A stretch of 62,345 nt of DNA, the filler included, from an uncultured Thermoplasmatales archaeon (lineage in GTDB: Archaea > Thermoplasmatota > E2 > DHVEG-1): the NCBI GenBank assembly GCA_964517155.1. It is 4 parts of 4 records of this genome, joined end to end, with 100 filler letters (N's around TTAATTAATTAA, not from the genome) between each part and the next. Parts side by side here need not be neighbours in the genome. Positions count along the whole stretch, not along the records: positions 43,701 to 57,570 come from CAZFAZ010000074.1; 3 more parts are not named here. One strand, 5' to 3'. How positions within the stretch are numbered: the stretch's first letter is position 1; each line of letters starts with the position of its first letter. The position numbers were made by a program, and so were the translations under genes. Positions 20,146 to 59,305 of this stretch are shown piece after piece. Below the pieces are notes generated by a model that searched no databases, was not told the DNA's origin, and saw only the letters and a program-made list of their open reading frames with translations.

Positions 20146-20245
20146 NNNNNNNNNNNNNNNNNNNNNNNNNNNNNNNNNNNNNNNNNNNNTTAATTAATTA
20201 ANNNNNNNNNNNNNNNNNNNNNNNNNNNNNNNNNNNNNNNNNNNN
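20146..20245. other. Artificial contig linker
   Basis: N44-TTAATTAATTAA-N44; stop codons in all six frames. Confidence 0.97.
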
Positions 20246-43600: not shown

Positions 43601-43700
43601 NNNNNNNNNNNNNNNNNNNNNNNNNNNNNNNNNNNNNNNNNNNNTTAATTAATTAANNNNNNNNNNNNNNNNNNNNNNNNNNNNNNNNNNNNNNNNNNNN
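43601..43700. other. Artificial contig linker
   Basis: N44-TTAATTAATTAA-N44. Confidence 0.97.
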
Positions 43701-43742
43701 AGGCTAATAAATGATAATATATATAAGCGTAACGGAAACGTT

Positions 43743-44066
43743 TTATTTTTTGGGTTTATAAGGAATTCTTGTATATTTTTGACAGTTTTTACAAAAAATA
43801 ATAATTTTTCCTTTGTTTATTCTAGTTCTTGAGTTTATATTTGGTAATAGATAGCTGTAGCAGTGTTTGCAAAAAGATCTTTTAAATTCTAGGGGTATTG
43901 GAGTTAAGTATTTCATTGATATTTTACGAGCAATATTTACGTATCTATTTGCTAGTTCAAAGTTTTTCTCTTTTGCTTTGTTATAGGCTAGTTTAAATAA
44001 TCTATGAATTCTTTTTATTGCTATTTGCTTCTGGTTTTTTTTTTTAAATGTTTTTTTGTATGTCAC
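43743..44066 (-). CDS. rnp4: RNase P protein component 4 (Rpp21)
   Basis: IA..RI..LF, A.RYV.IARKI, FCKHC...CKNC...RIP. Confidence 0.92.
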   Translation of the reverse strand: MTYKKTFKKKNQKQIAIKRIHRLFKLAYNKAKEKNFELANRYVNIARKISMKYLTPIPLEFKRSFCKHCYSYLLPNINSRTRINKGKIIIFCKNCQKYTRIPYKPKK

Positions 44067-44114
44067 GTAGTACTTGTATATCTTATTTATTAGATAAAAG
44101 CTGTGTTTTTCCTC

Positions 44115-46454: not shown

Positions 46455-46560
46455 ATACTTTAGATATAGAAAGGTTTACTTTTAATGGTTTTTATTTTTG
46501 TTTTTTTAAAAAAAGATAATAAAAAATAAAGAGAGCTGATTATGTGTAAATATCTCTTTT

Positions 46561-48267
46561 TTATACACCAGATACAACTACCGTAAATATCGCAGGTACG
46601 CCAGATTGGTATTGAGCATCCCAAACAATAACAGTTTCTTCATACGATGCTACATATTTAGCATCATATGGTGAAATGCCAGCATTATAATTTAACAAAG
46701 TTTCTGCGCCATCTAGTGATTTTATTATAATAGTAATACCTACGGTATCTGGTAGATTAAATGTCTGTTTCATTGTTTCATGAGTTATTGTTTTCATTGC
46801 ATTTATTTTATATATGCTAAGCATAGGTAAGGGATCGCTTTCTGTTGCTTTCCTTGCTTTGGATGAATCTTGTACTGATTCATCGTATCCTCCAACTACG
46901 TAATTATTTTGGTTATGGGCAATAACATAATCATCATTGAGTTTGACAAGATATGTATGATATACCTTTGTCTCCATGTTATATGTTGGTACTCTTTCAA
47001 ATATTTTTTCTATGGATGTAACATAAGCTTTATCAGCAAATAAATCACCTGTGTTTAGATCACCTGCTGGTATCCATTGTCCATTTACATATAATAGATG
47101 ATCTGGCGTTACTTTTAGTTCATTGTTAAGAACTAAATAGTGATCTGTTATCATTTGATCGGGTGAATCGTGGAAGACTTCTTCGACTTCATCGACTGTA
47201 ATAATCTGGTTTTTTTCGTCAAATGATTTAATTAAGTCTCCAATTTGTAGGTCTTCTATGTTTTTTGTTGTTCCGTCGGCCATTAGTATTTGGCTACCGG
47301 AAAGGAAACAGGTACTAGCTTGTTGTGAACCTCCTGGCAACATATCATCAATTGTTCCTCCTGCTGCAGGATTAGTTGTTTGTGTTGTTTGTGATGTTTG
47401 TGTTAGCCCAGTTGCTTGTTGTTGACCCGTGGCACCAGAATCCGTTGGACAGCTACAAGCAAAATGCCCGGAAGTTCCGACCAGACTATTCGGCGGACAC
47501 CACACCATAGGTGCTCCTCCAGCGCAAGGACCTTCCGCCTCTTGTCCACCTAAATACTCAGGGCCATTAGGGTCATCATCATCTGGATACCATGGATTAT
47601 ATGGGCCTGAGCCATCATCTGAAGAGTTCACGATAACAATAAGAGGTGCAGACCAATCACTAACATTACCACAAGGATCCTTGGCTCTTACAGTAACACC
47701 ATAGCTCCCTATACTATTCCAAGTATGTGATCTACTACTAAGCCCCCATCCACTAAATCCTGTTCCATCATTCCAATTAAATTGATATACTAATTTGTCA
47801 CCATCAGGATCAGTTGTTGATGCAGTGTAAATATAAGAAAAACCTTTTACTGCATTAGTTTCACCCTGAGGCACCCCTGGAATATTTGGAGGATTATTTA
47901 TATCGCATTCACCCGCAGGAATACTATCCTCTTCATATTCATCAGGAGAAATAGATACCAAAGACGTATCTACAGGTGTTTCATCTGGATCTAATCCAAG
48001 ACCTATATCTTTTACAAAAGCTACCTCAACCTGCCATTTTGGAGAGCCTGTTTGAGTTTCACCCGAGAGCTTTAATAGGCTTGAAATTTCAAGAGCCTGA
48101 GCTTTAAGCTCAATTGTTTTTTGTACTGAAGACTGCTCTAAAGACGGAGATATCGAAGCCACAATAATACCTACTGTAAATATAATTACTGTAAGAGATA
48201 TAGCTGCCTCCATAGGATAAGATAACGCGCTTTTATTATTACATATTTTTTTAATTTTTCTCATCAT
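46561..48267 (-). CDS. Pilin-like protein (class III signal) with PKD domain, Cys-rich mini-domain and Hint domain
   Basis: KKICNNKSA|LSYPME then hydrophobic helix; NNPP...DPDGD...FNWNDG PKD; CFLSG...TPDH...IAHN. Confidence 0.8.
   Translation of the reverse strand: MMRKIKKICNNKSALSYPMEAAISLTVIIFTVGIIVASISPSLEQSSVQKTIELKAQALEISSLLKLSGETQTGSPKWQVEVAFVKDIGLGLDPDETPVDTSLVSISPDEYEEDSIPAGECDINNPPNIPGVPQGETNAVKGFSYIYTASTTDPDGDKLVYQFNWNDGTGFSGWGLSSRSHTWNSIGSYGVTVRAKDPCGNVSDWSAPLIVIVNSSDDGSGPYNPWYPDDDDPNGPEYLGGQEAEGPCAGGAPMVWCPPNSLVGTSGHFACSCPTDSGATGQQQATGLTQTSQTTQTTNPAAGGTIDDMLPGGSQQASTCFLSGSQILMADGTTKNIEDLQIGDLIKSFDEKNQIITVDEVEEVFHDSPDQMITDHYLVLNNELKVTPDHLLYVNGQWIPAGDLNTGDLFADKAYVTSIEKIFERVPTYNMETKVYHTYLVKLNDDYVIAHNQNNYVVGGYDESVQDSSKARKATESDPLPMLSIYKINAMKTITHETMKQTFNLPDTVGITIIIKSLDGAETLLNYNAGISPYDAKYVASYEETVIVWDAQYQSGVPAIFTVVVSGV
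46912..47310 (-). other. Hint domain 3 (aa C320-N452), junction HN|Q
   Basis: Block A CFLSGSQILMADG, block B VTPDH, block F TYNME, block G IAHN. Confidence 0.9.
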
Positions 48268-48407
48268 GTTTTATCACCTTAAGTTATTATTTTATTATTA
48301 TACTCCTATTCATCACAACGTGACATGTAATATTTTACTAATCATGATATTTAAAGTTATTGTGCAAAAAAGTCAAAATGCAAAAATGATAAATAAAAAA
48401 AAAATCA

Positions 48408-48908
48408 CTATATACCATATTTAACCTCTTCATAAATATAATCATTTTTATTGCTTAAACTTAAACCAACAAGTATAGTATCTGGTGAATTATCAAACTT
48501 ATAAGAAATTCCTAAATATACTGCATCAAAACAATTTCCACGTAAACCTTCAGCAAAAATAAATATGTCTCTTGTATCATTAAAATAGATACTTACGACA
48601 TCCTCATAATTAATGTAATTAGATTTATCTTCTAATCTATCCTGTAATGCTACACCAAATTCTCTACGTGCATTATCAAAATCAAGTTTTATAAAAGATT
48701 TTTTATCTATAGGTATGTTAATATCAGATAAACTAATAGAAATCACAGCCAATGCAACAATAAATACTGTTATCATCACTCCACCCAACAACAGCAACTG
48801 ACCATCATTTCTCTGACAAAAACTATTTTTAGAATTTCTTTTTATATTAAAATCTAAAAGAAACTTTGCATGTCTTTTAAAAAATCCACGCCACATAAAA
48901 GCATTCAC
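48408..48908 (-). CDS. Pilin-like protein (class III signal peptide)
   Basis: RNDG|QLLLLGGVMITVFIVALAVI; operonic overlap with the upstream gene. Confidence 0.7.
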   Translation of the reverse strand: MNAFMWRGFFKRHAKFLLDFNIKRNSKNSFCQRNDGQLLLLGGVMITVFIVALAVISISLSDINIPIDKKSFIKLDFDNARREFGVALQDRLEDKSNYINYEDVVSIYFNDTRDIFIFAEGLRGNCFDAVYLGISYKFDNSPDTILVGLSLSNKNDYIYEEVKYGI

Positions 48909-49378
48909 CTCTCCAAATTAAACCACATATAAATTATCAATTCATAAATAAAACCATTCGCAACAACAATTCTGGAAACACGAGCTTCATTGTTAATCCA
49001 GATTCCAGGATCATACAGAACCTCGGTACAATTGTTTAGTGTAGCAGTTGAATTATACATTAACATTGAAACATTTACTCTTGAAATCTTAAATAAAGTA
49101 CCTGAAGGTAAAACCTCATAAACATAATTAACCAACTTAGAATTATGCGAGCTGTCATCAGCAATATATGAGGCCAATAAACTTGAATATTCTCCCGAAG
49201 GATCCTTTTGGCCACCCAAACTTGTAAAAATGCTGTTGCCATATGATTCAAACCTGTTGTCACGCCCCATAGGTAAATGAATTGAAACATCTATACTTCT
49301 CACGAAAAATATTGCTAAAAGCAACATTCCTGCAACAATAACTGCCTCAAGTACTTGTAATTGAGCAGAATCATTCAT
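48905..49378 (-). CDS. Pilin-like protein (class III signal peptide)
   Basis: NDSA|QLQVLEAVIVAGMLLLAIFFV. Confidence 0.75.
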   Translation of the reverse strand: MNDSAQLQVLEAVIVAGMLLLAIFFVRSIDVSIHLPMGRDNRFESYGNSIFTSLGGQKDPSGEYSSLLASYIADDSSHNSKLVNYVYEVLPSGTLFKISRVNVSMLMYNSTATLNNCTEVLYDPGIWINNEARVSRIVVANGFIYELIIYMWFNLER

Positions 49379-51327
49379 ATATATTCTCCCCTTACAACAA
49401 TACTTCTTTCACCTTTTTCAAGAGTTAAACCACCAATCGTCCAATAATAATCAGAAACACTATCAGAATCAAATTTAATTTCCAGCACACCTGCTGCAGT
49501 AACAGATACATTAGATTTTAAGATTTGTTTATACGGTTCATCCGAAGAGCAAGTTATACCTGAGAGTATTATGTTTCCATCACCTCCATTTAAAGTTATG
49601 TTCATATCATTTACAATTATATCTTCATCACCTACAGTAAAAACTATACTGTAAAAACCTTCTGTTAAATTCATGATTTTAAAAAAAGCAGGACCTGAAC
49701 CTGTAGCATTACAAACAAAAGTCCTGCCTAACCCCTCACCCAAATCTTTTGAATTTACTAAACCACTATCCCACGTATAATCCAGTGAATGAGTTCCATT
49801 TATATATGCAACTGGTTCAGCGTCAGCACGCCCACCACTACCGATGGATGTAACCATTGCAAACTTTCGAACAAATATCCAATCATAATATGCAATAGTA
49901 CCACTGTTAGTTGTGCAAAGCCCAAAATAGCCCTCATTAAGTAAATTATATATAGTTGCATTAGATCCATCTACAGAAAAGCTCTCATAAAAATATCTAC
50001 ATATTACATTATCTGTACCATTTAAGATATATTTCAACCGATTCCACTCAGTATTAACAGGGTTTTTGCCATAATTGGAAGATATGTTTTTCCATTCATT
50101 ATTTTGATATTTTATAATAGTCAAATAATTCTCTAAATTATCCCCCGGAGATCCTGTAGCTATAGAACTTGATGAAAAAACTAATCCTTCTTGATAAGGT
50201 AGTTTATTAATGCCTAAAATATTTTTACTTCTAACAAACATGCTAGCCTCCCTCTTATTTTCTGTAACTTCAACTGCTTTTGTTTTAACTTCAATTATGC
50301 AGGGCGATGACTCAGGATACAACATCAATTTAGATTTTAATGCAGATTTATTTGTTAAAACTAACATTTTGTCTTTAACATACAACTCACCACCCGAAGG
50401 AATATAAGTACTCCATCTACCCGAATCAGGAGCAGACCCCTGAGAAAAATCATCAAAGAAAATAAATGTATCAAAACCATTGCTATAAGGAAGAGCTAAG
50501 GGATTGCTATAATACATATAAATTGTACATCCTGTTGCAGGTATATCTGTTACATTTACCCATATCCTTGAAACATGTGTTTCACTTGGATACCACCGCT
50601 CTATCCAATACGGCAATAATTGTCCTCCAGCATTATCAGAAACAAATCTCAAATCAGAGGCGTTATTATTAACTAGTGAATAATCAAAATTTTTGTCAGT
50701 TAATTGAATTAGAATTTGATAACCATCATCTATATCACTTCCAGTTGGATTGCTTATGTATATAGGGGTTCTATATCGATATTGTAAAAGTTGCGGATGC
50801 CAATTATTAGGCTCACAATTATCTGATATTCTTGTGTATCCTAAAGTTCCAAGTGAATTTTCTCCACCAAAATCAAACTTATATACATAATCAGTTTTTT
50901 TACAAAAAACAACCAATTTTCCCTCCGAACTATATACCCTACCATATACATCCATAATCAACCTTTGAGGAACATTATAATTTGTACTGCTTACTTTAAT
51001 CACTCCATCTGTAGAATTAACATATACTGCTTGGTTACTAATTTCTACATAATAAGAGTACTTATCAATTAATTTTAAAGGAATCTCAAATGTTGTTGAA
51101 TAATTTGCATTAGGATATTGTTCTTTTATTAAACAAATATTAGTTATAAGGCTTGCTACACGATTTGCAAGATCTTGAGCATATAACTCTGCAGCAGATA
51201 CTGTCTTTTCATCAATAACTGTAACAACTGCAAGTGTAGAAGCAGCAACTACAAATCCTGTTAAAGAAAGTGTTAAGACGTATCCAACTAAATTAGATAC
51301 TGCATCATTTCTTTCTAAAAAATTCAT
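49375..51327 (-). CDS. Pilin-like protein with an inserted DUF2341 domain
   Basis: RNDA|VSNLVGYVLTLSL; YRTPIYI, DLRF, PYWIERW, IWVNV, YMYYSNP, FFDDF. Confidence 0.8.
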   Translation of the reverse strand: MNFLERNDAVSNLVGYVLTLSLTGFVVAASTLAVVTVIDEKTVSAAELYAQDLANRVASLITNICLIKEQYPNANYSTTFEIPLKLIDKYSYYVEISNQAVYVNSTDGVIKVSSTNYNVPQRLIMDVYGRVYSSEGKLVVFCKKTDYVYKFDFGGENSLGTLGYTRISDNCEPNNWHPQLLQYRYRTPIYISNPTGSDIDDGYQILIQLTDKNFDYSLVNNNASDLRFVSDNAGGQLLPYWIERWYPSETHVSRIWVNVTDIPATGCTIYMYYSNPLALPYSNGFDTFIFFDDFSQGSAPDSGRWSTYIPSGGELYVKDKMLVLTNKSALKSKLMLYPESSPCIIEVKTKAVEVTENKREASMFVRSKNILGINKLPYQEGLVFSSSSIATGSPGDNLENYLTIIKYQNNEWKNISSNYGKNPVNTEWNRLKYILNGTDNVICRYFYESFSVDGSNATIYNLLNEGYFGLCTTNSGTIAYYDWIFVRKFAMVTSIGSGGRADAEPVAYINGTHSLDYTWDSGLVNSKDLGEGLGRTFVCNATGSGPAFFKIMNLTEGFYSIVFTVGDEDIIVNDMNITLNGGDGNIILSGITCSSDEPYKQILKSNVSVTAAGVLEIKFDSDSVSDYYWTIGGLTLEKGERSIVVRGEYI

Positions 51328-53156
51328 TTGATCGCCTCCAAGTTTAATTCGATAAGAGAGTTATCAAAAATAAGTTTTTTCCCATTGTGAGTATATACTA
51401 GTGTATCTTCATCCAAGGGTTCAAAGTCATAGTTATTTCTGAAATATTCAAGCCAAATATCCTTATTATCCCCATAAATCTGTATTTTTAGATTGTATAC
51501 GCTAGGAAACCGTGGCTCTCTGCTTAAACTATTTTTCATATTAATTCCAAGTTGATATGCTCCAGCACCACCACCTCCTGTCGACCCAGTTCCTCTCACT
51601 TGGATTATCCTTAATGCAAGAGCGTTTTCTCCTTCAAAAAAAGATGGTTTTTTCACAAAGTTATTCTCAGATGATTCGATAGATATTACTGCCCCATTTT
51701 CAAATATAGTTTCCAGAATTCCAACATTATACGGCGCAGTATATGTGACTGATCCTAAATCAAAAACCCAGATTCTACCAAAAGGAGTACCATATGTATT
51801 AGGAAAACGATTTGACTGATTAAAATAAACATCACATGTAGAATTAATAATATCCATACGTAATGTTCCAGACAATTCCTTTACAGCATCAAAAGTACCC
51901 TCCTGATTAATTCCAACATTAAGAAACTGATAACTTGCATCTTCTGGAAAATACTCCCAAGGACGAACACGAATACCGGGACTAACATAATCTATTTCAT
52001 TTATCGCACCATCTTCATTCTTTGCTTGTACGGTCACAGTATAAGTACCAGGTTTTTTAAAAATATGCCAAAAATAGACCGACTCTCCTGAAGTAAATAA
52101 TCCTTCCGTCCAATCATCAACAGTTCCATCGCCCCACATTATTCTATATCTTAAATCCTTATTATCAGGATCTTCTCCAGTTATATTAAACAAACATTTC
52201 AAACCTGAATATCTAAAAACAGGCAGTATCACGCTTGGCGTAAATGGAGGTGGACACTCTACATAAAATGTGCTATAAGGAAAATCGTACAGAGGCATTG
52301 AAACTAAGCCTGTACTTTCATTTATATATGCCATGCCATTTGTATAAATATTTCCTCCAAAATACCACATATAATAGTTCGAATTTCCATCACCACCTAA
52401 AGTACTTAATACAATATAATACTCCTCATCCTGAATTAATGTTATATTTTCAAAATCACAGTTTATCCAACCCCAAGAATTTAAAATACTGCTGGAAGGT
52501 AAAGATACAGATGTAAAAGGTTCATTATTTAAACCCGGAAAATCACTAGCATTATAAATAGAAACAACAAGATCACCAGTAACTATACCATATGATTTTA
52601 CATAAACCTGGATTTTATCTAAAGTCCATCCATATGAATTGTTAAAAGATTGTGCACACCAATGATTGTTATATATCTTTTTATAAGGTGTTGTTTGCGG
52701 AGAAAAATACCATGTTGGCATTCCCGGGTCAAGCCAATATATATTAGCTGAATCAACAGTAGGTGAACTGCCATCCATATTTACTGTAAAATATTGATCT
52801 TTATCATCTAAACCGGATACAGTAAAATTGTAACTTTCATTAAAAGAATACATTATTATCATTTTAGTCGAATTTGAATCTATAGATAGTGAACCTTTAT
52901 CATTCATACTTACTATCTCGCCACCTGCTCTTGTGTCTGGGCCATCTATTATCAAGTTACGTATAGTGTCATCCATAACATCAAAGTTACCCAAGGCAGT
53001 CTGCAATTGACTGCTCATTTTTTTTTCTTCTATATACGGCAAACCCCATGCAAGAACTACAGTTATAGTACCAAAAACAATCATAATTACAAGAAGCGCT
53101 GAAACAACCTCTGAAACACCCTGATTATCCATCTTTATTTTTTTCATCATCCTCAC
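51324..53156 (-). CDS. Pilin-like protein with beta-sandwich and PKD inserts; Hint-less paralog of the next gene
   Basis: DNQG|VSEVVSALLVIMI; WGLPYIE; AQSF domain; DPDN...WGDG PKD; PFGRIWVFDLG. Confidence 0.8.
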   Translation of the reverse strand: MRMMKKIKMDNQGVSEVVSALLVIMIVFGTITVVLAWGLPYIEEKKMSSQLQTALGNFDVMDDTIRNLIIDGPDTRAGGEIVSMNDKGSLSIDSNSTKMIIMYSFNESYNFTVSGLDDKDQYFTVNMDGSSPTVDSANIYWLDPGMPTWYFSPQTTPYKKIYNNHWCAQSFNNSYGWTLDKIQVYVKSYGIVTGDLVVSIYNASDFPGLNNEPFTSVSLPSSSILNSWGWINCDFENITLIQDEEYYIVLSTLGGDGNSNYYMWYFGGNIYTNGMAYINESTGLVSMPLYDFPYSTFYVECPPPFTPSVILPVFRYSGLKCLFNITGEDPDNKDLRYRIMWGDGTVDDWTEGLFTSGESVYFWHIFKKPGTYTVTVQAKNEDGAINEIDYVSPGIRVRPWEYFPEDASYQFLNVGINQEGTFDAVKELSGTLRMDIINSTCDVYFNQSNRFPNTYGTPFGRIWVFDLGSVTYTAPYNVGILETIFENGAVISIESSENNFVKKPSFFEGENALALRIIQVRGTGSTGGGGAGAYQLGINMKNSLSREPRFPSVYNLKIQIYGDNKDIWLEYFRNNYDFEPLDEDTLVYTHNGKKLIFDNSLIELNLEAIK

Positions 53157-53306
53157 CTAATAAATAGGTATACATTTTATTCTCATTTATCATAACAACC
53201 ACTGTTTCTCTCATTTTTACAGTCGTTGTTAAGAGCATTTATGCTCTCACCAAGGATAATTAATTTTTATATCCAACTATGAGTAAATCTACATATTATC
53301 TTTATT

Positions 53307-56303
53307 TTATCTTATATCTAATATATTGACTCTAATAATTGAACTATAGCAAGCCAACTTTGTTGAAGCCCCATTTTTGTATAACAGCGTATCAGAATAG
53401 CTACCAGACTGCTCAGTGAAATCAGGAGTCCATGCAAACGTAAGATATGTATACCAAAGGTCTTGGTTTGAACCAATTATTTTAAGTTTTAAATTGCATA
53501 CCTGAGAAGTTTGCGATTCAGCTACAAAAGAATTTAAAAGATGAAGTTGAAACTTGTAATTACCAGTGCCGCTACCACTAGTTGCTCCATCCCCTCTAAT
53601 CTGAGTAACTTTGCATACAAGAGTACTACTGCCACTTTCATAAATATTTGAAGATTCTTGTAGATATCTGCTAGAAGGAGTTATCTTTACAACTCCACCA
53701 TTTTGAAACATTGTTTTGTAAAAACCATTATTGGACTGATAAGTATGGCAGATATGACCAAGATCAAAGATCCATATCCTACCAAATGGAATACGACCCC
53801 TGAGACCAATGGGCGTAGAAGGGTAATTATTATTATAAAGGTCTATACGAACTGTCCCTTTTAAAGCATGTATGCCTTGTGTAGAAATAGGATATACTCC
53901 AGTTATACCGCTCAGGTCCTCAAAAAAAGAAGAAGCAAACATCTCCTCATCAAGAGGCGCTCTAACTGTATATTTAACTTGTATGACCAATGGTTCAGAC
54001 CAATCGCTTTGCAGACCCTCACCATCTATTGCTTTTGCTCTAATCTCATAGATGCCTGCTTGAGACCAACTATGCTCTTGAACACTTCCTCCTTCAATAT
54101 ACGTTCCATCACCCCATGAAAAATTATAAGAAGAGATTCCACCACCGCCCGAAGGAGCTGCAATAAAACTATAGAGGGTGTCATTATAATAAACATTATA
54201 AGAACCAGTAAGCGACGGCGGATTTGGAGGATTATTTGAAGAGTCCAATATCGCTGAAGCAGTAGATGCTGCACCATATGGTTTTGCATTACTACCATCT
54301 GACTCTTGCCCTCTATCATTTGCGATTGACCATGCTTTGTAATAATATACGCTATTCGATGATAGTCCTGTATGAATAGTACTTGTTCCACTAAATATAC
54401 CAAGGTCTCCACCCGGCACTATAGTTCCAGATCCTTTGTTCCATGGAATGGGCTCAGAATCTTGAGAATATTCTATATATACTTTGTCTCCCCCTGTTCC
54501 ATGTGTCCATGAAAGCATTACCTGATCTGTATCAGCAGTTGCACTAAAACTTAACAAGGCAGCAGGTTTAGTAAGAAAATATTGTTCAAGACCAAAACTA
54601 CATCCAATACGATTACAAGCCACTGCATAATAACGATAATATGTTCCTTCCGATAATGAAGAAATTGATGTAGAATAAGCACCTGTATCAAAGTAACCAG
54701 TTTCAGATTCACACTCTTCTTCTATCAAACCACCAGTATAACATATTCCCCTAGAAAATCTTTCCTCTGAACCAATAAAAAGAATATTGCCTCTACCAAT
54801 GAATGTAGTTTCACCAACATCACCAGATTGAATTACTTCTGTAGTAACTAGTGGATATTTCGGTTTTTCTGGCGCTGAGTTATGAGTAATAATATCATCT
54901 GCAATAAAAGTGCCATATTTCATATCTACAAAATTATAAGTAAGATAATTGCCCTCAAATGATACAATGTCCAGCACTTCAACCACATCTAGTTCATCCT
55001 TAGAATTTAAACAAAAAAGAAAATCACCAATCTCAATTATACCTGCACCCATCTCCAACTCATCCAAACCACTAATAGTACACCACCCCTTACCACTCAC
55101 AAGAAAAGGATGATTAGCTGTAGGTTTCAAAACCTTACCATCGCTAAGTAAAATCTCATGAACATTATCATGCCAAATTGTTTGCAAACGCACCACAGGA
55201 GCAATCTCAACAATACTAGTCTCTTCATTAAAAACCTTAACCAGATCACCAATAACAATATCTTCAATATTTTTATAAGATCCATCCGCCATATTAACAG
55301 GAGTACCTGGCATAAAACATATTATCACTTCTTGACCTATAGCCGTAAGTTGATATTTTTCATTTTCAACATAATCTATTTCAATTCCATACTCCATATC
55401 ATTATGACCAAAAGCATCTTTTGCATTCGGATTAAAAGTAAATAAGTTATGAAAGTTATAAAAAATATCAAAAAGTGCGTTTTCTAAATAACCTAAATCT
55501 GATTTAACTAAGAAGCCATCAGCAAAATATACATTACAAGAAGAAAGTTTTAGATCATAGGTAATCTTTCTTTCGTATTCTTTTTCAACTGAAAAGATAT
55601 TAACCTCGTTTAAATTCTCATTAGTTAAATAATCACCAATTCTAATTTGTTCAGCTGAAACCCATTCATTATTAACATAGAATAAATGATTAGGAGTAAC
55701 ACAAACGTTTCCATTTAAAACGAGGTAATAATCATACATAAGGCTTTCATTATAAATCAATAGCTCTTCAACCTTATCTTCAACAAAAATATCCTTATTA
55801 AAATCATAAGATAAAACTACATCTCCGCTTTTAATAAACTCAATATTTTTATAACTACCATCAGCCATTAAAACCTGAGTACCTGAAAGAAAACATGTTG
55901 TTTCTTCAAACCAATAAACTTTTGCATCATTTAGTTGACCTTTTGACATATGTATATCAATTTGATTTTCAGCAAGATCTGATACATTGAATTCATAACC
56001 CTCATCAAATGAATACATGAGTAATAGCTTGTCCCCACTTGACTCTATATCAATGGAGCCATCTTCATTAAAAATATCTTCAATTCTAATTGAATCAGCT
56101 CCATCTGTAGCCAACTTTTGCAAGATTTCATCTAAAGAAGAAAACTCACCGGCTATTGCCTCACTTCTATTTTTTGCTTTTTCACTTTCAATATAAGGCA
56201 ATCCCCATAAAAGAATAGAGGTAATACTAGAAAAAAAAATAATAAGAACCAAAATAAGCGAAAAAACAGAGCTAACTGCATCTTTTCTTTTCTTCAGATT
56301 CAT
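53307..56303 (-). CDS. Pilin-like protein with two tandem Hint domains, two FN3-like domains and a PKD domain
   Basis: Likely start MNLKKRKDA|VSSVFSLILVLII; WGLPYIE; two CF..G..V.MADGSYKNIE Hints; PFGRIWIFDLG. Confidence 0.85.
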   Translation of the reverse strand: MNLKKRKDAVSSVFSLILVLIIFFSSITSILLWGLPYIESEKAKNRSEAIAGEFSSLDEILQKLATDGADSIRIEDIFNEDGSIDIESSGDKLLLMYSFDEGYEFNVSDLAENQIDIHMSKGQLNDAKVYWFEETTCFLSGTQVLMADGSYKNIEFIKSGDVVLSYDFNKDIFVEDKVEELLIYNESLMYDYYLVLNGNVCVTPNHLFYVNNEWVSAEQIRIGDYLTNENLNEVNIFSVEKEYERKITYDLKLSSCNVYFADGFLVKSDLGYLENALFDIFYNFHNLFTFNPNAKDAFGHNDMEYGIEIDYVENEKYQLTAIGQEVIICFMPGTPVNMADGSYKNIEDIVIGDLVKVFNEETSIVEIAPVVRLQTIWHDNVHEILLSDGKVLKPTANHPFLVSGKGWCTISGLDELEMGAGIIEIGDFLFCLNSKDELDVVEVLDIVSFEGNYLTYNFVDMKYGTFIADDIITHNSAPEKPKYPLVTTEVIQSGDVGETTFIGRGNILFIGSEERFSRGICYTGGLIEEECESETGYFDTGAYSTSISSLSEGTYYRYYAVACNRIGCSFGLEQYFLTKPAALLSFSATADTDQVMLSWTHGTGGDKVYIEYSQDSEPIPWNKGSGTIVPGGDLGIFSGTSTIHTGLSSNSVYYYKAWSIANDRGQESDGSNAKPYGAASTASAILDSSNNPPNPPSLTGSYNVYYNDTLYSFIAAPSGGGGISSYNFSWGDGTYIEGGSVQEHSWSQAGIYEIRAKAIDGEGLQSDWSEPLVIQVKYTVRAPLDEEMFASSFFEDLSGITGVYPISTQGIHALKGTVRIDLYNNNYPSTPIGLRGRIPFGRIWIFDLGHICHTYQSNNGFYKTMFQNGGVVKITPSSRYLQESSNIYESGSSTLVCKVTQIRGDGATSGSGTGNYKFQLHLLNSFVAESQTSQVCNLKLKIIGSNQDLWYTYLTFAWTPDFTEQSGSYSDTLLYKNGASTKLACYSSIIRVNILDIR
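54879..55319 (-). other. Hint domain 2 (aa C344-N490 of the 1013-aa ORF), canonical splicing junction HN|S
   Basis: CFMPGTPVNMADG, PTANHPF, TYNF, ITHN|S. Confidence 0.9.
55500..55895 (-). other. Hint domain 1 (aa C152-S283 of the 1013-aa ORF), lacks terminal His-Asn (LVKS|D)
   Basis: CFLSGTQVLMADG, VTPNHLF, TYDL, YFADGFLVKS. Confidence 0.88.
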
Positions 56304-56358
56304 TAATACATCCCCATCCATTAACATCTCTAATTTTAATTTAAACAATACCTCATTT

Positions 56359-57291
56359 TTATACTCCTGTAACCAGAAATTTGAAGATAAACCATGTAAT
56401 TAAAACCATGATAAACATATGTTTAACACCAGCAACAATTTTGCCATCTTCAAATACACCTGTTACAACACCCATACCTGCGCTTTGAAATATAGCTGCA
56501 ACAAAAAATGCAAAAGTAATATCATACTGAGTTATAGTTGAAGATCCACCCATTGCACCTGAAAGACCACCTGAACCAGGACCAAGCATAGCAGGAACCA
56601 AACTTTTACATAAAATAACTATAATTAAAAGAAAAACAAACATACCAACATAAACAACTGCAACATAAGAAAGCATACCTGCACGACGTTCAGATTCAAT
56701 AAGTTTAAGCTCTCTTGCATCCCTTGATGCTGCATCAAGAACATCTGCAACATTTCCACCACTGCGGCTTGCTTCAATAATCAGAGAAACAGTTCGACGG
56801 ATAAGCTTAGTATTAACACGTTTTGCAAAAGATTCAAGTGCTTTTTCAACACTATTACCCCAAGAAATCTGACGAGCAATATTTTGAATTTCAGGCGTAA
56901 GAAGACCATAATTGCCTTTTGAAGCAGCCATAATAGTCTTTGTAAAAGTCATACCCGCACGACGAGACTCAGCAAGATCACGTACAAAATCTGGAAATCT
57001 ATGATCAATTTTACGTACCTTTCGCTCACGCAAGAAACTATAAATACCAAAAATACCAGTTGAAACAATAAATGCTAAAACTAGATAATCAACATTAGTA
57101 CCAAGAATTACACCACCAATTTCAAAAGGTTTTATAATATCTATTGGGGGCGTAGATAAAATTGATAAAAAAATAAATAAAACTGCAGAAAAAGCAATAA
57201 CCATATAAATAACAAAACGAGAAAATTCACCTGTTACAATCATACGTTTTATAAAACCGGGTTTTGAGATCTTATCTATATTCTCATCCAT
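56359..57291 (-). CDS. Type IV pilus / T2SS-F membrane platform protein (TadC/FlaJ-like)
   Basis: FPDFVRDLAESRRAGMT, YGLLTPEI, ISWG, EASRSGGNVADVL. Confidence 0.92.
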   Translation of the reverse strand: MDENIDKISKPGFIKRMIVTGEFSRFVIYMVIAFSAVLFIFLSILSTPPIDIIKPFEIGGVILGTNVDYLVLAFIVSTGIFGIYSFLRERKVRKIDHRFPDFVRDLAESRRAGMTFTKTIMAASKGNYGLLTPEIQNIARQISWGNSVEKALESFAKRVNTKLIRRTVSLIIEASRSGGNVADVLDAASRDARELKLIESERRAGMLSYVAVVYVGMFVFLLIIVILCKSLVPAMLGPGSGGLSGAMGGSSTITQYDITFAFFVAAIFQSAGMGVVTGVFEDGKIVAGVKHMFIMVLITWFIFKFLVTGV

Positions 57292-57297
57292 TTTTTA

Positions 57298-57570
57298 TCA
57301 CACCCTCTGAGACATAGAAGCCAAAACAACAGCAAAACCAGTATGAATTAAAGGAATAACAACAAATGCAAAAACATAAATAATCAAAAGCTGACCTTTA
57401 TCAGCATTTGAAATAATCATAAGAAGAGGAATTATAATAATAATTAACAAAACACCTGCGACCGCCGCTGTAACATATGCCTCAGCCATTATTCCAAGGC
57501 TTTCAATAAGTTGTCTTTGAGCAACACGATTCTCACGTGTATATTGATCTGCTTTACTCATAAAATATGG
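57298..57570 (-). CDS. C-terminal fragment of a second TadB/TadC-like platform protein, truncated by the gap
   Basis: IESLGIMAEAYVTAAVAG followed by TM helices. Confidence 0.8.
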   Translation of the reverse strand, partial: PYFMSKADQYTRENRVAQRQLIESLGIMAEAYVTAAVAGVLLIIIIIPLLMIISNADKGQLLIIYVFAFVVIPLIHTGFAVVLASMSQRV

Positions 57571-57670
57571 NNNNNNNNNNNNNNNNNNNNNNNNNNNNNN
57601 NNNNNNNNNNNNNNTTAATTAATTAANNNNNNNNNNNNNNNNNNNNNNNNNNNNNNNNNNNNNNNNNNNN
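57571..57670. other. Artificial contig linker
   Basis: N44-TTAATTAATTAA-N44. Confidence 0.97.
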
Positions 57671-57760: not shown

Positions 57761-59305
57761 ATTAAACAACTGTTAAGGAGAAGTTTATAAAAGACAGGGA
57801 CATATTTAAAAATAGATATGACAAAATGGACAAAGGAAGATATAAATAATCTTAAAACTAAATATCCTAAGAATGGAACTAAGATTCCTGAGTTAACAGA
57901 TAAGTTCTCAGTTTCAGCTATTAAAACTAAAGCAAGAATATTAAATATTAAAAAACAAACTTGGACAGAAGAAGAAATAAAGATTTTAAAAGAAAAATAT
58001 CAAAAAAATGGTTGTAAGATTCCTGAATTGCTAAATAATAAAACTCAAAGTTCAATTGTCTGCAAAGCACATAAACTAGGAATAAAATCTAATGTTCGTT
58101 CAATTCCAAGAAAATGGACCGATGAAAGGATTCACAAATTAAAACAGGATTATAAACAAAAAGGTACAGATATACCTGAACTCCTTGAAATTTTTTCTAG
58201 AAACGCAATAATGATAGCAGCAAGAAATCTAAATCTAAAATGCCATAAAAAAATAAACAAGAAATTTGATATTTCTAAGGATGAATTAGTTGAGTTGTAT
58301 ACTAATCAGAAAAAATCTACAACACAAATCGCAAAGATTTATAACTGCTCTTTTAACACAATCGTATCAAGACTTGAGGGATATAATATTCAAATAAGAA
58401 AACGCAAAGACAGTATTTGCATAGTTCGTGGTTATCATAAAAATATAAAATTAAATGATTACATTTTACAGATTATGGATGGTATTTTATTAAGTGATGG
58501 TGGTTATGATTTTGGTGGAAAAGATAAAAAAACTGCTTCATTAAAAATCACACAAATGGAAAGTCATAGAGAATGGTTAGATGAATTAAAATCTATTTTT
58601 GAAAATAACAATATTGAGTGTTCGATGGTTCATAGATTTTCAAGGCCAATTGATAAAAGTTTTCCTCAATGGGTTTTGAAAACAAGGTATTATTTGGAAT
58701 TAGGTGATGAACGGAAAAGATGGTATCCAAAAGGTAAAAAAATAGTTCCAAAAGACGTTAGAATAACTCCTTTGGTTCTTGCTCAGTGGTATATGGGTGA
58801 TGGAAATTTAAGTGCTACAGGTGGGACTAAAAGTGGAAAAAAATTCTATAGACTAAGTCTCTGTACAGATAGTTTTACTAAAGAAGAAAATGAGTTTTTA
58901 AGAGATAAACTCAAAAAACTTTATGGTTGGAATTTTAGAGTTTTTAAATATCGTAATAGTTCGTATAGACTAGTAATTAATCTGCCTAAAGAGATTAAAG
59001 ATTTTTTATTTAAAACAGCGCCTTACAAAGTGGAATGTTTTAACTATAAATGGGAAGCATTGTATGATATTAATTATGCTCCTATCAGAACTGAATGGAC
59101 TAAAAGAAAAGATATGATTATAATAAAGAAATTCCCTGAAAATGGTACTAATATTCGTGAATTATTAGATGATGGTATATCAGAATATGCTATTCAGCAC
59201 AGGGCAATAAAACTTGGTGTAAAATGTAATTATATATTCAATCAATCTGGAAAAACTAAAAGAAAAAATTCATGATTAAAAAACTGCTAATGAGAAATCT
59301 ATAAA
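57761..59305 (+). repeat. Imperfect 31-bp direct repeats flanking the LAGLIDADG gene (57761-57791 and 59275-59305)
   Basis: ATTAAACAACTGTTAAGGAGAAGTTTATAAA vs ATTAAAAAACTGCTAATGAGAAATCTATAAA; 26/31 identical by hand alignment. Confidence 0.5.
57818..59275 (+). CDS. Free-standing two-motif LAGLIDADG endonuclease with Myb/SANT-like repeats and an HTH
   Basis: IMDGILLSDG and LAQWYMGDG motifs; WT.E....LK..Y...G..IPEL three times N-terminally and once C-terminally; ELVELY...STTQIAKIYNCS HTH. Confidence 0.8.
   Translation: MTKWTKEDINNLKTKYPKNGTKIPELTDKFSVSAIKTKARILNIKKQTWTEEEIKILKEKYQKNGCKIPELLNNKTQSSIVCKAHKLGIKSNVRSIPRKWTDERIHKLKQDYKQKGTDIPELLEIFSRNAIMIAARNLNLKCHKKINKKFDISKDELVELYTNQKKSTTQIAKIYNCSFNTIVSRLEGYNIQIRKRKDSICIVRGYHKNIKLNDYILQIMDGILLSDGGYDFGGKDKKTASLKITQMESHREWLDELKSIFENNNIECSMVHRFSRPIDKSFPQWVLKTRYYLELGDERKRWYPKGKKIVPKDVRITPLVLAQWYMGDGNLSATGGTKSGKKFYRLSLCTDSFTKEENEFLRDKLKKLYGWNFRVFKYRNSSYRLVINLPKEIKDFLFKTAPYKVECFNYKWEALYDINYAPIRTEWTKRKDMIIIKKFPENGTNIRELLDDGISEYAIQHRAIKLGVKCNYIFNQSGKTKRKNS

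What the first reader, a model, noticed from the sequence alone, without database searches (positions are those of the whole stretch)
54876..55895. Tandem Hint pair with complementary chemistry inside one pilin
Seen: Hint1 (C152...LVKS|D, no His-Asn) and Hint2 (C344...THN|S, fully canonical) are separated by a 60-aa spacer and share the identical peptide MADGSYKNIE. Inference: Hint2 can splice out. Hint1 can only form an N-terminal thioester, as a Hedgehog-type Hint does. That thioester could hydrolyse and release the FN3-PKD arm, be captured by an external nucleophile (covalent attachment), or be resolved by Ser491 to excise Hint1-spacer-Hint2. One gene could thus give several pilin isoforms.
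Basis: partly seen in the sequence, partly recalled or inferred. Interest (0 to 1): 0.85.

Follow-up and report, generated by a model that had tools for sequence, protein, structure and literature searches.

The report
Two unrelated Hint domains in pilin
An archaeal pilus-operon surface protein carries two self-processing Hint domains: a conserved one that has lost its C-terminal cutting residues, and an add-on mini-intein that probably works on its own.

Summary
The ORF at 53307..56348 (-) holds Hint1 (C152...LVKS|D284) and Hint2 (C344...THN|S491), 60 aa apart.

The "complementary pair" reading is mostly not supported.
- Hint1 belongs to a well-supported clade of 13 pilin-embedded Hints. All end [K/R/C]-S-D and keep Cys1, block-B Thr/His and the block-F Asp. 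All lack the three residues used for Asn cyclisation.
- KS is conserved, not decay. The Ser uses both TCN and AGC codons within the clade.
- 11 of the 13 have no second Hint.
- Hint2 lies in a separate clade of 32 units. All have Cys1, and 30 of the 31 complete ones have HN plus Ser/Thr/Cys. None sits at the pilin position. In relatives these units form tandem arrays of up to nine.
- MADGSYKNIE is the family's block-A consensus.
- The N-terminal part (aa 24-151) and C-terminal part (aa 822-1013) are predicted to interlock as one domain. Cutting at T151|C152 would therefore open a loop, not release the arm.

Most likely, Hint1 makes an N-terminal thioester and cuts only there, like a type-B BIL or Hedgehog Hint, while Hint2 splices out independently. 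No processing has been observed. The invariant Ser-Asp is unexplained.

The parts
53307..56348 (-). Whole ORF ('pilin A'), 1013 aa from TTG. The likely true start is ATG at 56303 (aa 16).
   Evidence: It is the first pilin-like gene after T2SSF in an operon conserved in 5 of 5 genomes compared.
55896..56303 (-). Leader, hydrophobic N-terminal helix and N-terminal half of the head domain (aa 16-151). Ends ...WFEETT just before Cys152.
   Evidence: phmmer finds this part in 92 rows of the fetched set. Weak DUF7289 match, E 0.022. The paralog's equivalent part matches DUF7289 at E 1.2e-9. The AF2 model of the paralog has a helix at aa 16-71 followed by strands.
55500..55895 (-). Hint1, aa 152-283: Cys152, Thr218-x-x-His221, Asp265, ending Lys282-Ser283.
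   Evidence: AF2 pLDDT is above 90 for aa 150-279. Foldseek top hits are BIL domains.
55497..55502 (-). Ser283-Asp284, invariant in all 13 members of the clade. These sit at the positions of intein Asn G:7 and the +1 residue.
   Evidence: Ser codons are TCA x4, TCT x1 and AGC x1 in 6 gene copies from 5 genomes.
55320..55499 (-). Spacer, aa 284-343. An aromatic-rich helix at aa 284-300 of low to moderate confidence, then disorder.
   Evidence: AF2 block pLDDT falls from 76 to about 50 over the helix and is 34-50 for the rest. No similarity to Hint or anything else in the fetched set. Only P0008 has a loosely similar aromatic stretch (by eye).
54879..55319 (-). Hint2, aa 344-490: mini-intein-like, Cys344, T-A-N-H, ending Thr-His-Asn.
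   Evidence: Member of a starred clade of 32 units.
54876..54878 (-). Ser491, the +1 nucleophile of Hint2.
   Evidence: The +1 residue is Thr 14, Ser 13, Cys 3 and Phe 1 among the 31 complete units of the clade.
53886..54875 (-). Variable arm, aa 492-821, with a borderline PKD domain (aa 726-785, window 53994..54173) and a weak FN3-like stretch.
53310..53885 (-). C-terminal half of the head domain (aa 822-1013).
   Evidence: Found at the extreme C-terminus of the family (75 match rows). Co-occurs with the N-terminal part in 60 fetched proteins. Predicted to interlock with aa 24-151.
51324..53156 (-). 'Pilin B', a paralog with the same N- and C-terminal head parts and a PKD insert but no Hint.
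46561..48267 (-). Last operon gene, 568 aa: leader-like N-terminus, PKD, Gly/Pro/Thr/Gln-rich linker, and Hint3 (aa 320-452, window 46912..47310; Cys...Ala-His-Asn|Gln).
   Evidence: A Hint ending [IV]IAHN followed by Q, A, V, A or A is present in the last gene of 5 of 5 operons.
56359..57291 (-). T2SSF / FlaJ-TadC-like membrane platform gene directly upstream. The contig ends at 57570.
   Evidence: In relative G024 the operon starts with a T2SSE ATPase and two T2SSF genes.
48408..51327 (-). Three further operon genes: 650 aa (DUF7266 + DUF2341), 157 aa and 166 aa.
   Evidence: The same order and sizes occur in 5 of 5 operons.

Best explanation
The gene is the first pilin-like subunit ('pilin A') of a Tad/archaellum-type type IV filament operon in an uncultured archaeon. 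Its head domain is built from aa ~24-151 and aa ~822-1013. A ~670-aa insertion (aa 152-821) splits that domain, and it begins directly with Hint1.

Hint1 is a domesticated BIL-like Hint from a clade that has lost the whole Asn-cyclisation apparatus. It has kept Cys1, block-B Thr/His and the block-F Asp. The inferred mechanism: Hint1 folds outside the cell, shifts the Thr151-Cys152 peptide bond to a thioester, and that bond is then broken, most simply by hydrolysis or thiolysis. This gives a two-chain pilin. The insertion changes from a closed loop to a free-ended arm that stays held through the interlocked C-terminal half. There is no cut at Hint1's C-terminus.

Hint2 is a separate, accessory mini-intein. 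Its type proliferates in surface proteins of this lineage. It is inferred to splice itself out, joining Ile343 to Ser491.

The two Hints act independently.

Shown here: the anatomy, conservation, phylogeny, operon context and predicted interlock. Inferred: every chemical step.
For: 1. Conserved site.
- Among 245 fetched proteins, 85 have an N-terminal hydrophobic helix and a Hint starting at aa 90-200.
- All 85 start with Cys, and 56 of 85 have Thr at -1.
- 70 end His-Asn, 12 end Lys/Arg-Ser, and 3 end otherwise.

2. The xS-D clade.
- It has 13 rows, with SH-like support 99 in FastTree on 368 Hints.
- SH-aLRT support is 99 in IQ-TREE on an 88-row subset.
- Cys1, V-T-x-N-H, Asp-Leu in block F and the terminal Ser-Asp are invariant.
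- The column of intein His F:13 is His in 0 of 13, against 62 of 70 in the His-Asn pilin Hints.
- F:13, G:6 and G:7 are the residues assigned to Asn cyclisation. Thr B:7, His B:10 and residue F:4 affect the N-terminal reaction (PMC4031507: section 6 read in full, other passages).

3. Selection.
- The Ser codons are TCA x4, TCT x1 and AGC x1.
- Hint1 is 60% identical between the window protein and P0008, against 38-40% for the head parts.

4. Independence of the two Hints.
- 11 of 13 clade members have one Hint only.
- In 3 of the 5 operons compared, pilin A has no extra Hint.

5. Hint2.
- Its clade has 32 rows (support 98; 16 of 16 sampled rows at 99).
- Cys1 is present in 32 of 32, and His-Asn in all 31 complete units.
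- The +1 residue is Thr, Ser or Cys in 30 of 31.
- None of the 32 is at the pilin position.
- BIL domains have been turned into efficient splicers by a single mutation (PMC7664689, passage).

6. Interlock of aa 24-151 with aa 822-1013.
- ipSAE was 0.86 (three runs: 0.86, 0.88, 0.82). The best of 3 controls was 0.01.
- The runs agree in at least 93% of contacts, and the partner's pLDDT is at least 80.
- This mark was reached by 116 of 157 solved complexes and 2 of 215 mismatched pairs. These counts hold only roughly here, because my own alignment was used.
- Strands 107-112 pair with 857-861 and 953-958, and residues 143-144 pair with 834-836.
- phmmer of the paralog against the PDB found no solved relative of the head parts at E up to 1.
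- The model supports binding; it does not show it.

7. Fold.
- Foldseek's best matches to the Hint1 model are BIL2 of Tetrahymena (6y75, E 2.9e-10, TMt 0.78) and the Clostridium thermocellum BIL (2lwy, E 5.1e-10, TMt 0.82).
- The first intein is at rank 6, and Hedgehog 1at0 is at rank 36.
Against: - No processing of any kind has been observed. Everything chemical is inferred from residues.
- The invariant Ser283-Asp284 and the basic residue before them are under selection. Simple loss of C-terminal cleavage does not explain this, so the C-terminal junction may have its own chemistry.
- Hydrolysis of an intein-type thioester is normally slow without an added nucleophile. Which nucleophile resolves it here is unknown.
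- Hint2 lacks the usual Asp at F:4 (Asn) and His at F:13 (Gly), as does most of its clade. Its splicing competence is therefore likely but not certain.
- The fetched protein set was collected by similarity to these Hints, so the proportions are not a census.
- The interlock is a prediction made with my own alignment.
- The benefit of opening the loop is not explained.
Confidence: 0.5

Rival explanations
1. The thioester at Thr151 is not simply hydrolysed. A specific nucleophile captures it: a lysine or free amino terminus of another pilus subunit, a glycan, a lipid, or a target surface. The N-terminal head part, which is anchored in the filament, would then become covalently attached. This is Hedgehog-like or sortase-like transfer.
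For: - This is the only canonical use of a Hint that keeps step 1 and nothing else. Hedgehog uses only the initial acyl shift, to attach cholesterol (PMC7664689, passage).
- Cys1 is kept in 85 of 85 pilin-position Hints, and Thr at -1 in 56 of 85.
- A second conserved Hint with His-Asn and no +1 nucleophile sits in the last gene of 5 of 5 operons. Its Asn cyclisation would free an amino terminus. Type-A BIL ligation is proposed to work through such an amine attacking the thioester (PMC4031507, passage).
Against: - No acceptor is identified.
- The stretch after Ser-Asp is not conserved across the whole clade. The window protein and P0008 differ from the other 11, so there is no clear adduct-recognition region.
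- No test here bears on it directly.
Confidence: 0.15
2. Hint1 still acts at its C-terminal junction, by chemistry other than Asn cyclisation. There are three sub-options. Asp284 may cyclise. Ser283 may make an N-to-O shift. Ser283 may take over the acyl group from Cys152, giving a stable ester-branched protein. Under this reading Hint1 excises itself or rewires the chain.
For: - Ser-Asp is invariant in 13 of 13, preceded by Lys, Arg or Cys.
- The Ser is kept across both codon families.
- Inteins ending in Asp or Gln can cleave by cyclisation (PMC4031507, section 6).
- Ser recurs at the last position in other lineages: VLVHS|R, VLVQS|R, YLVHS|V, ILVHS|G, LLVQS|K.
Against: - In the gap-free alignment Ser sits at G:7 and Asp at +1.
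- Asp, with Ala, is also the commonest +1 residue (11 of 70 each) in the His-Asn pilin Hints, so it may simply be inherited.
- The helper histidines F:13 and G:6 are both gone.
- Asn to Ser is a one-step change for AAY to AGY, so its recurrence elsewhere may be mutational.
Confidence: 0.15
3. Hint1 is catalytically silent: a structural module or spacer kept for folding or for display of the arm.
For: - The C-terminal catalytic residues are lost.
- After any cleavage the domain would stay attached to the protein anyway.
Against: - Cys1, Thr, His and the block-F Asp are invariant in 13 of 13 sequences whose head parts have diverged to about 40% identity.
- Cys1 is present in 85 of 85 Hints at this site.
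- A purely structural module would not be expected to keep exactly the step-1 residues.
Confidence: 0.12
4. One reading: Hint1 and Hint2 cooperate. Ser491 resolves Hint1's thioester, so that Hint1-spacer-Hint2 leaves as one piece and several isoforms arise from one gene.
For: - The chemistry is formally complementary within this one protein.
- P0008 also has Hint1 followed by intein-like units ending THN|S.
Against: - 11 of 13 members of the Hint1 clade have no second Hint.
- The two Hints come from different clades.
- A 60-aa, mostly disordered spacer separates the two active sites.
- The closest relative of Hint2 (73%) sits in a different kind of protein.
Confidence: 0.05

Closest known systems
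Bacterial intein-like (BIL) domains, type A (Clostridium thermocellum BIL, PDB 2lwy; Tetrahymena BUBL BIL2, PDB 6y75)
   Same: - Best fold matches to Hint1, and among the few sequence matches in the PDB for both Hints (6y75/6tmm for Hint1; 2lwy second to 8w20 for Hint2).
- They sit in variable regions of non-conserved secreted or surface proteins and lack a +1 nucleophile (PMC7765530 and PMC4031507, passages).
- Hint3 and the 70 His-Asn pilin Hints fit this type.
   Different: - Type A keeps C-terminal His-Asn. Hint1 has Lys-Ser.
- The reviews I read describe BILs as bacterial, and the name says the same. These are archaeal, and fixed at one site of a pilin-like head domain.
Type B BIL domains
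   Same: [quoted passage not shown] Hint1 most likely works this way.
   Different: - Hint1 keeps the block-G strand (YFADGFLV) and changes only its last two residues.
- Membership by sequence could not be tested, as no type-B profile was on hand.
Hedgehog C-terminal autoprocessing (Hog) domain
   Same: A Hint that uses only the N-to-S acyl shift and has no terminal Asn (PMC7664689, passage).
   Different: - Only a distant fold match: 1at0 at rank 36, E 5.2e-5.
- No conserved sterol- or adduct-recognition region follows Hint1.
- The C-terminal product would stay bound here rather than leave.
Class 1 mini-inteins
   Same: Hint2 has Cys1, block-B T-x-x-H, His-Asn and a +1 Ser. It passes TIGR01445 and Pfam Intein_splicing.
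   Different: - The host is a variable linker of a surface protein, not a conserved site of an essential enzyme.
- There is no endonuclease domain.
- Relatives stand head to tail in arrays with linkers of 0-6 aa.
- Asn at the F:4 column and Gly at the F:13 column.
Pretoxin HINT (PT-HINT, PF07591) of polymorphic toxins
   Same: Hint1 passes this Pfam model (45.8 bits, cut-off 27.7).
   Different: No toxin domain follows. The downstream parts are PKD/FN3-like and the pilin head.
SEA and GAIN autoproteolytic domains (recalled, no call)
   Same: Self-cleavage within a folded domain whose two chains stay associated. This is what the predicted interlock implies here.
   Different: Unrelated folds and chemistry. 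The comparison is an analogy only.

Membership tests
HINT superfamily (Hint1) | Profile match over the curated cut-off | tested here: met
   PF01079 48.4 bits (cut-off 29.7) and PF07591 45.8 (27.7), with the best stretches at aa 148-279.
HINT superfamily (Hint1) | Hint fold | tested here: met
   AF2 pLDDT above 90 over aa 150-279. Foldseek gives 62 PDB matches at E <= 0.001. Those listed are BIL, intein, Vint and Hedgehog chains.
Class 1 intein (Hint1) | N-terminal Cys/Ser and block-B Thr-x-x-His | tested here: met
   Cys152 and Thr218-Pro-Asn-His221.
Class 1 intein (Hint1) | C-terminal Asn (or Asp/Gln) able to cyclise | tested here: not met
   Ser283 is at that column in 13 of 13 clade members.
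Class 1 intein (Hint1) | Cys/Ser/Thr at +1 | tested here: not met
   Asp284, invariant in the clade.
Type A BIL (Hint1) | C-terminal His-Asn without a +1 nucleophile | tested here: not met
   Hint1 has Lys-Ser in place of His-Asn. The feature is met by Hint3 (AHN|Q) and by 59 of the 70 His-Asn pilin Hints.
Type B BIL (Hint1) | Intein N-terminal motifs present, block-G motif absent, cleavage without splicing | tested here: inconclusive
   The N-terminal motifs are present and His-Asn is absent, but the block-G strand is kept. No type-B profile was available, and cleavage is not testable here.
Hedgehog Hog domain (Hint1) | Hint followed by a sterol/adduct recognition region | tested here: inconclusive
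   A helix at aa 284-300 with block pLDDT falling from 76 to about 50, then disorder. The region after Ser-Asp is not conserved across the clade.
Hedgehog Hog domain (Hint1) | Closest relatives are Hog Hints | tested here: not met
   1at0 is at rank 36 (E 5.2e-5), behind BILs and inteins.
Class 1 intein (Hint2) | Cys1, block-B T-x-x-H, His-Asn, +1 Ser/Thr/Cys | tested here: met
   Cys344, T-A-N-H, His489-Asn490 and Ser491. In its clade, Cys1 is 32 of 32 and HN plus a nucleophile is 30 of 31.
Class 1 intein (Hint2) | Curated intein profile | tested here: met
   TIGR01445 36 bits (cut-off 24.5), aa 344-417. PF14890 42.6 bits (cut-off 35.8).
Class 1 intein (Hint2) | Precise insertion relative to intein-free alleles of the host | tested here: inconclusive
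   11 of 13 related pilins lack it, but the flanking linker cannot be aligned.
Class 1 intein (Hint2) | Excision with ligation of the flanks | not testable with these tools
   Needs protein chemistry.
Archaeal type IV pilin-like protein (DUF7289) | Profile match | tested here: inconclusive
   The N-terminal part of the window protein scores E 0.022 (14.8 bits, cut-off 27). It is homologous to the paralog (E 6.8e-26), which passes (38.6 bits). P0008 carries PF23960 in the precomputed list.
Archaeal type IV pilin-like protein (DUF7289) | Short charged leader, long hydrophobic N-terminal helix, then a beta domain | tested here: met
   Sequence. The AF2 model of the paralog has a helix at aa 16-71 followed by strands at pLDDT around 90.
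Archaeal type IV pilin-like protein (DUF7289) | Encoded with a type IV filament ATPase and platform protein | tested here: met
   T2SSF lies directly upstream. T2SSE plus two T2SSF genes occur in the syntenic operon of G024.
Archaeal type IV pilin-like protein (DUF7289) | Prepilin peptidase cleavage and assembly into a filament | not testable with these tools
   Needs experiments.

The most novel reading that the evidence does not exclude
The Hints of this operon are a built-in protein-ligation system for a pilus. Pilin A's Asn-less Hint1 makes a thioester at the end of the filament-anchored N-terminal head part, and a nucleophile captures it instead of water. The boldest form places the 'complementary chemistry' between subunits rather than inside this gene. 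The operon's last protein has a conserved Hint with His-Asn and no +1 nucleophile. Its Asn cyclisation would free an amino terminus, which attacks pilin A's thioester. That would be a type-A-BIL ligation in trans, welding two pilus proteins together. A related form is an arrested, ester-branched pilin made through the invariant Ser283.
Probability: 0.12. Interest if true: 0.9.

Novelty: new variant of a known kind. Interest (0 to 1): 0.6.

Why it matters
Hint domains are known in three roles: inteins in conserved enzymes, Hedgehog processing domains in animals, and BIL or pretoxin domains in bacterial surface proteins and toxins.

Here a BIL-like Hint is fixed at the border between the head domain and the variable arm of archaeal type IV pilin-like proteins. 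This holds across many genomes of one archaeal family. One clade has shed the Asn-cyclisation residues while keeping the thioester-forming ones, and it holds a new Ser-Asp ending under selection.

That is a natural experiment in separating the steps of protein splicing. It predicts post-translationally cut, or possibly ligated, archaeal pilus subunits, which have not been described in the papers I could search.

The same lineage also holds head-to-tail arrays of intein-like units in surface proteins. This challenges the usual picture of where inteins live. It may also be a source of small, orthogonal splicing or thioester-generating modules for protein engineering.

Tried and rejected
- **Recent tandem duplication of one Hint.** Rejected. 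The two Hints are 35% identical over 101 aa, lie in different clades, and the shared decapeptide is the family consensus.
- **Sequencing error or recent decay at KS.** Rejected.
- **The spacer as a relic of a lost Hint.** hmmsearch with all filters off gave -0.6 bits. BLAST found only weak hits with E of 0.4 or more, some on Hint C-termini. This gives no support. The two His-Asn dipeptides in the spacer remain unexplained.
- **The search for related loci in genome contigs with the single protein.** It returned one bacterial Hint (Arenicella) and nothing useful. The genome search was used instead.
- **VIA-align search of the 610-aa paralog model against 48,161 chains.** Every top row covered only the PKD domain (model residues 300-401). 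The fold of the head domain was therefore not tested, and nothing can be said about its likeness to solved pilins.
- **The LAGLIDADG gene at 57818..59275 as a homing partner for Hint2.** It lies beyond an N run, on another contig, so adjacency is not established.
- **Literature searches.**
  - 'Hint domain' + archaea + pilin gave 1 irrelevant paper.
  - DUF7289 gave 0 papers.
  - Tandem, adjacent or consecutive inteins, intein array and tandem Hint gave 2 papers, neither on such arrays.
  - pilin + intein + archaeal gave 12 papers. None concerned a Hint in a pilin, judging by title and abstract.
  - PT-HINT + archaea gave 6 papers, and polymorphic toxins + archaea + HINT domain gave 2, also judged by listings only.
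  - Subscription journals are not covered, so prior description cannot be excluded.

Full report
**What is in the sequence**

The finding's coordinates are exact. The ORF 53307..56348 on the minus strand encodes 1013 aa from a TTG start. Hint1 runs from Cys152 (55895) to Lys282-Ser283 and is followed by Asp284. Hint2 runs from Cys344 to His489-Asn490 and is followed by Ser491 (54876). The spacer between them is 60 aa. MADGSYKNIE occurs in both Hints.

Pfam places its best Hint (48.4 bits) and PT-HINT (45.8 bits) stretches on Hint1, and its best Intein_splicing stretch (42.6 bits) on Hint2. All three are over their cut-offs. NCBIfam's intein N-terminal model (36 bits, cut-off 24.5) matches Hint2 only.

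The shared decapeptide is not a sign of recent duplication:
- It is the block-A consensus of the whole family (consensus of alignment A1).
- The two DNA copies differ at 6 of 30 bases in 4 codons, including AGT versus TCT for Ser.
- The two Hints are 35% identical over 101 aa.

The window is a concatenation of contigs joined by N runs. The operon discussed here lies on one contig, window 43701..57570.

**The host protein and its operon**

The gene directly follows a T2SSF/FlaJ-like gene. Five further genes follow it:
- A paralog with the same N- and C-terminal parts but no Hint (DUF7289, 38.6 bits).
- A DUF7266 + DUF2341 protein.
- Two small proteins.
- A 568-aa protein with a third Hint, Cys...Ala-His-Asn|Gln.

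The same gene order is found in four relatives of the same family. In one of them it is preceded by a T2SSE ATPase and two T2SSF genes.

In all five operons, pilin A carries a Hint ending [K/R]-S-D. In all five, the last gene carries a Hint ending [IV]IAHN followed by Q, A, V, A or A. Extra Hints occur only in the window's pilin A (one) and in genome G024 (two more in pilin A, four more in the last gene).

With the N-terminal part plus Hint1 as query, 71 of 197 genomes of the class have a match at E <= 1e-5. In the window's family the figure is 50 of 107.

**Hint1 is a conserved, Asn-less clade**

Two searches gave 244 further proteins:
- A word-index search found 162 hits at E <= 0.001 and listed 120.
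- An exhaustive search with aa 120-343 found 5787 hits at E <= 0.001 and listed the best 150.

A Hint HMM built from the window's three Hints found 425 domains in them.

I defined 'pilin-position' Hints as those with an N-terminal hydrophobic stretch and a Hint starting at aa 90-200. There are 85:

| Feature | Count |
|---|---|
| Start with Cys | 85 of 85 |
| Thr at -1 | 56 of 85 |
| End His-Asn | 70 |
| End Lys-Ser | 7 |
| End Arg-Ser | 5 |
| End otherwise | 3 |

After His-Asn the +1 residue is a nucleophile in only 11 of 70 (D 11, A 11, K 9, G 9, P 8, S 6, T 4, and others). This is the BIL pattern rather than the intein pattern.

The [K/R]-S Hints, plus one fragment ending Cys-Ser, form one clade of 13. 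Support is 99 in FastTree on 368 Hints and 99 SH-aLRT in IQ-TREE on an 88-row subset. The last two residues were left out of both trees.

Within the clade, Cys1, V-T-x-N-H, the block-F Asp-Leu and the terminal Ser-Asp are invariant. The column of intein His F:13 is His in 0 of 13, against 62 of 70 in the His-Asn pilin Hints.

The review PMC4031507 (section 6 read in full; other passages) assigns His F:13, His G:6 and Asn G:7 to Asn cyclisation. It assigns Thr B:7, His B:10 and residue F:4 to the N-terminal reaction. The clade has therefore lost the whole step-3 set and kept the whole step-1 set.

This is not decay or error:
- His-Asn to AAA-TCA needs at least four base changes.
- Six gene copies from five genomes encode the Ser with TCA (4), TCT (1) and AGC (1).
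- Hint1 is 60% identical between the window protein and P0008, while their head parts are 38-40% identical.

The wider set of pilin Hints does have His-Asn.

**Hint2 is something else**

Hint2 falls in a clade of 32 units (support 98; 16 of 16 sampled rows at 99). None of them is at the pilin position. All 32 start with Cys. All 31 complete ones end His-Asn, and the +1 residue is Thr 14, Ser 13, Cys 3 and Phe 1.

Its nearest relative (73% identity) is a unit in a different kind of protein, P0009. The unit at the corresponding place in P0008 is 59% identical.

Members of this clade make up much of the head-to-tail arrays in partial proteins named by their sources as Thermoplasmatales or Thermoplasmata archaeon. 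P0002 has 9 units, P0004 has 8 and P0003 has 7. Over the fetched set, 104 of 244 Hint proteins have two or more Hints. The linker between neighbours is 6 aa or less in 87 of 146 cases, and in 3 cases it is zero.

Only 2 of the 13 Hint1-clade proteins have any further Hint. Hint2 is thus an accessory unit, not a partner that Hint1 needs.

Most of the Hint2 clade has Asn at the F:4 column and Gly at the F:13 column. Such departures occur in working inteins (PMC4031507, section 6). By sequence Hint2 is, like Hint1, nearest to a BIL among the few solved structures matched (2lwy, E 1.6e-4, second to 8w20). BILs have been turned into efficient splicers by a single mutation (PMC7664689, passage). Splicing of Hint2 is likely, but not shown.

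**Where the Hints sit in the fold**

The N-terminal part (aa 16-151) and the last ~190 aa recur together in 60 fetched proteins. In 48 of these the Hint follows the N-terminal part directly. In 3 it precedes the C-terminal part. In 8 it lies between, some of these because the N-terminal match was partial. One, the paralog, has none.

In some members the insertion sits one strand earlier, and the displaced strand reappears just before the C-terminal part.

A complex prediction of aa 24-151 against aa 822-1013, with my alignment A1, gave the following:
- ipSAE 0.86 (runs 0.86, 0.88, 0.82), against a best control of 0.01.
- The runs agree in at least 93% of contacts, and the partner's pLDDT is at least 80.
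- The mark was reached by 116 of 157 solved complexes and 2 of 215 mismatched pairs in the tool's calibration. These counts hold only roughly here.
- Strands 107-112 pair with 857-861 and 953-958, and residues 143-144 pair with 834-836.

I found no solved sequence relative of these parts, so the pass is unlikely to be memory of a known complex. The model supports binding but does not show it.

The paralog's AF2 model has a 56-residue N-terminal helix and confident beta parts at both ends. This fits a type IV pilin-like head. A fold search with that model returned only PKD matches, so the head fold itself remains untested.

The consequence is that everything from Cys152 to about aa 821 is an insertion in a hairpin of one domain. 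A cut at Thr151|Cys152 opens that loop but leaves the arm attached through the C-terminal half.

**Structure of Hint1**

AF2 with alignment A2 gave pLDDT above 90 for aa 150-279. A helix follows at aa 284-300, with block pLDDT falling from 76 to about 50, and then disorder.

Foldseek ranks BIL domains first: 6y75 at E 2.9e-10 and 2lwy at E 5.1e-10. Inteins follow from rank 6, and Hedgehog 1at0 is at rank 36. Hint1 thus works like a Hedgehog or type-B BIL Hint but descends from the BIL-like group. I do not file it as a Hog domain or as an intein.

**Most likely mechanism and open points**

I commit to the following, at about 0.5 for the whole statement:
- Hint1 forms the Thr151-Cys152 thioester and the bond is broken there only, giving a two-chain pilin with a free-ended arm.
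- Hint2 splices out on its own, joining Ile343 to Ser491.

Rivals:

| Rival | Confidence |
|---|---|
| A specific nucleophile captures the thioester | 0.15 |
| The invariant Ser-Asp carries out its own chemistry at the C-terminal junction | 0.15 |
| Hint1 is a silent, structural module | 0.12 |

The strongest unexplained fact is the selected [K/R]-Ser-Asp ending, which simple loss of function does not predict.

**Novelty**

BIL and Hog-type processing are known. What appears new:
- The fixed placement at the border between head and arm of archaeal pilin-like proteins.
- The derived Asn-less Ser-Asp clade.
- The intein-like arrays.

My literature searches found no description of any of these. 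They cover open-access papers and bioRxiv only, and most results were judged from listings.

Noticed in passing
window 46561..48267 (-), Hint3 at 46912..47310: The last operon gene holds a third Hint (Cys...Ala-His-Asn|Gln). It has His-Asn but no +1 nucleophile, and it sits just before a 116-aa C-terminal part. A Hint with the same ending is in the last gene of all 5 operons compared.
   Followed up: partly
proteins P0002, P0003, P0004, P0006, P0007; L029:12593-16519: Head-to-tail arrays of 5 to 9 intein-like Hint units with linkers of 0-6 aa, in partial surface proteins of related archaea. One array follows a subtilase domain. In three cases the +1 residue of one unit is Cys1 of the next.
   Followed up: partly
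window 44115..46454 (-): A 779-aa protein with a signal-like N-terminus and a thioredoxin CPSC motif lies next to the operon. Homologous CxxC proteins sit inside the operon in 2 of the 4 relatives. This could be redox control of the Hint cysteines, but it was not tested.
   Followed up: partly
window 20146-20245, 43601-43700, 57571-57670: N runs show that the window is several contigs of a 1.59-Mb, 91-contig genome bin laid end to end. Genes on either side of an N run need not be neighbours.
   Followed up: yes
window 57818..59275 (+): A free-standing LAGLIDADG_2 endonuclease (98.7 bits) with several Myb/HTH-like repeats at both ends. It lies on a different contig piece from the Hints.
   Followed up: no
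window 55446..55451 and 55401..55406 (-), aa 300-301 and 315-316: Both histidines of the 60-aa spacer are followed by Asn (FHN|L and GHN|D). There is no significant similarity to a Hint C-terminus, so this may be chance in an Asn-rich protein.
   Followed up: partly
G000:C63:36-401 (-), locus L003: A further Hint at the edge of another contig of the same genome, inside an open frame given as 1813 aa. It is probably a giant surface protein.
   Followed up: no
proteins P0047, P0051, P0054, P0055, P0057, P0059, P0224, P0229: In part of the family the Hint and its arm are inserted one strand earlier (after about aa 110). In at least P0055, P0057 and P0229 the displaced strand reappears just before the C-terminal head part. 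This gives independent support that the two head parts are one domain.
   Followed up: partly
proteins P0068, P0078, P0082, P0083, P0089 and others: Hints ending VHN|QKG or similar are embedded in alpha-2-macroglobulin (YfaS-like) proteins of 1700 aa. This is another fixed Hint site in a large surface or periplasmic protein family.
   Followed up: no
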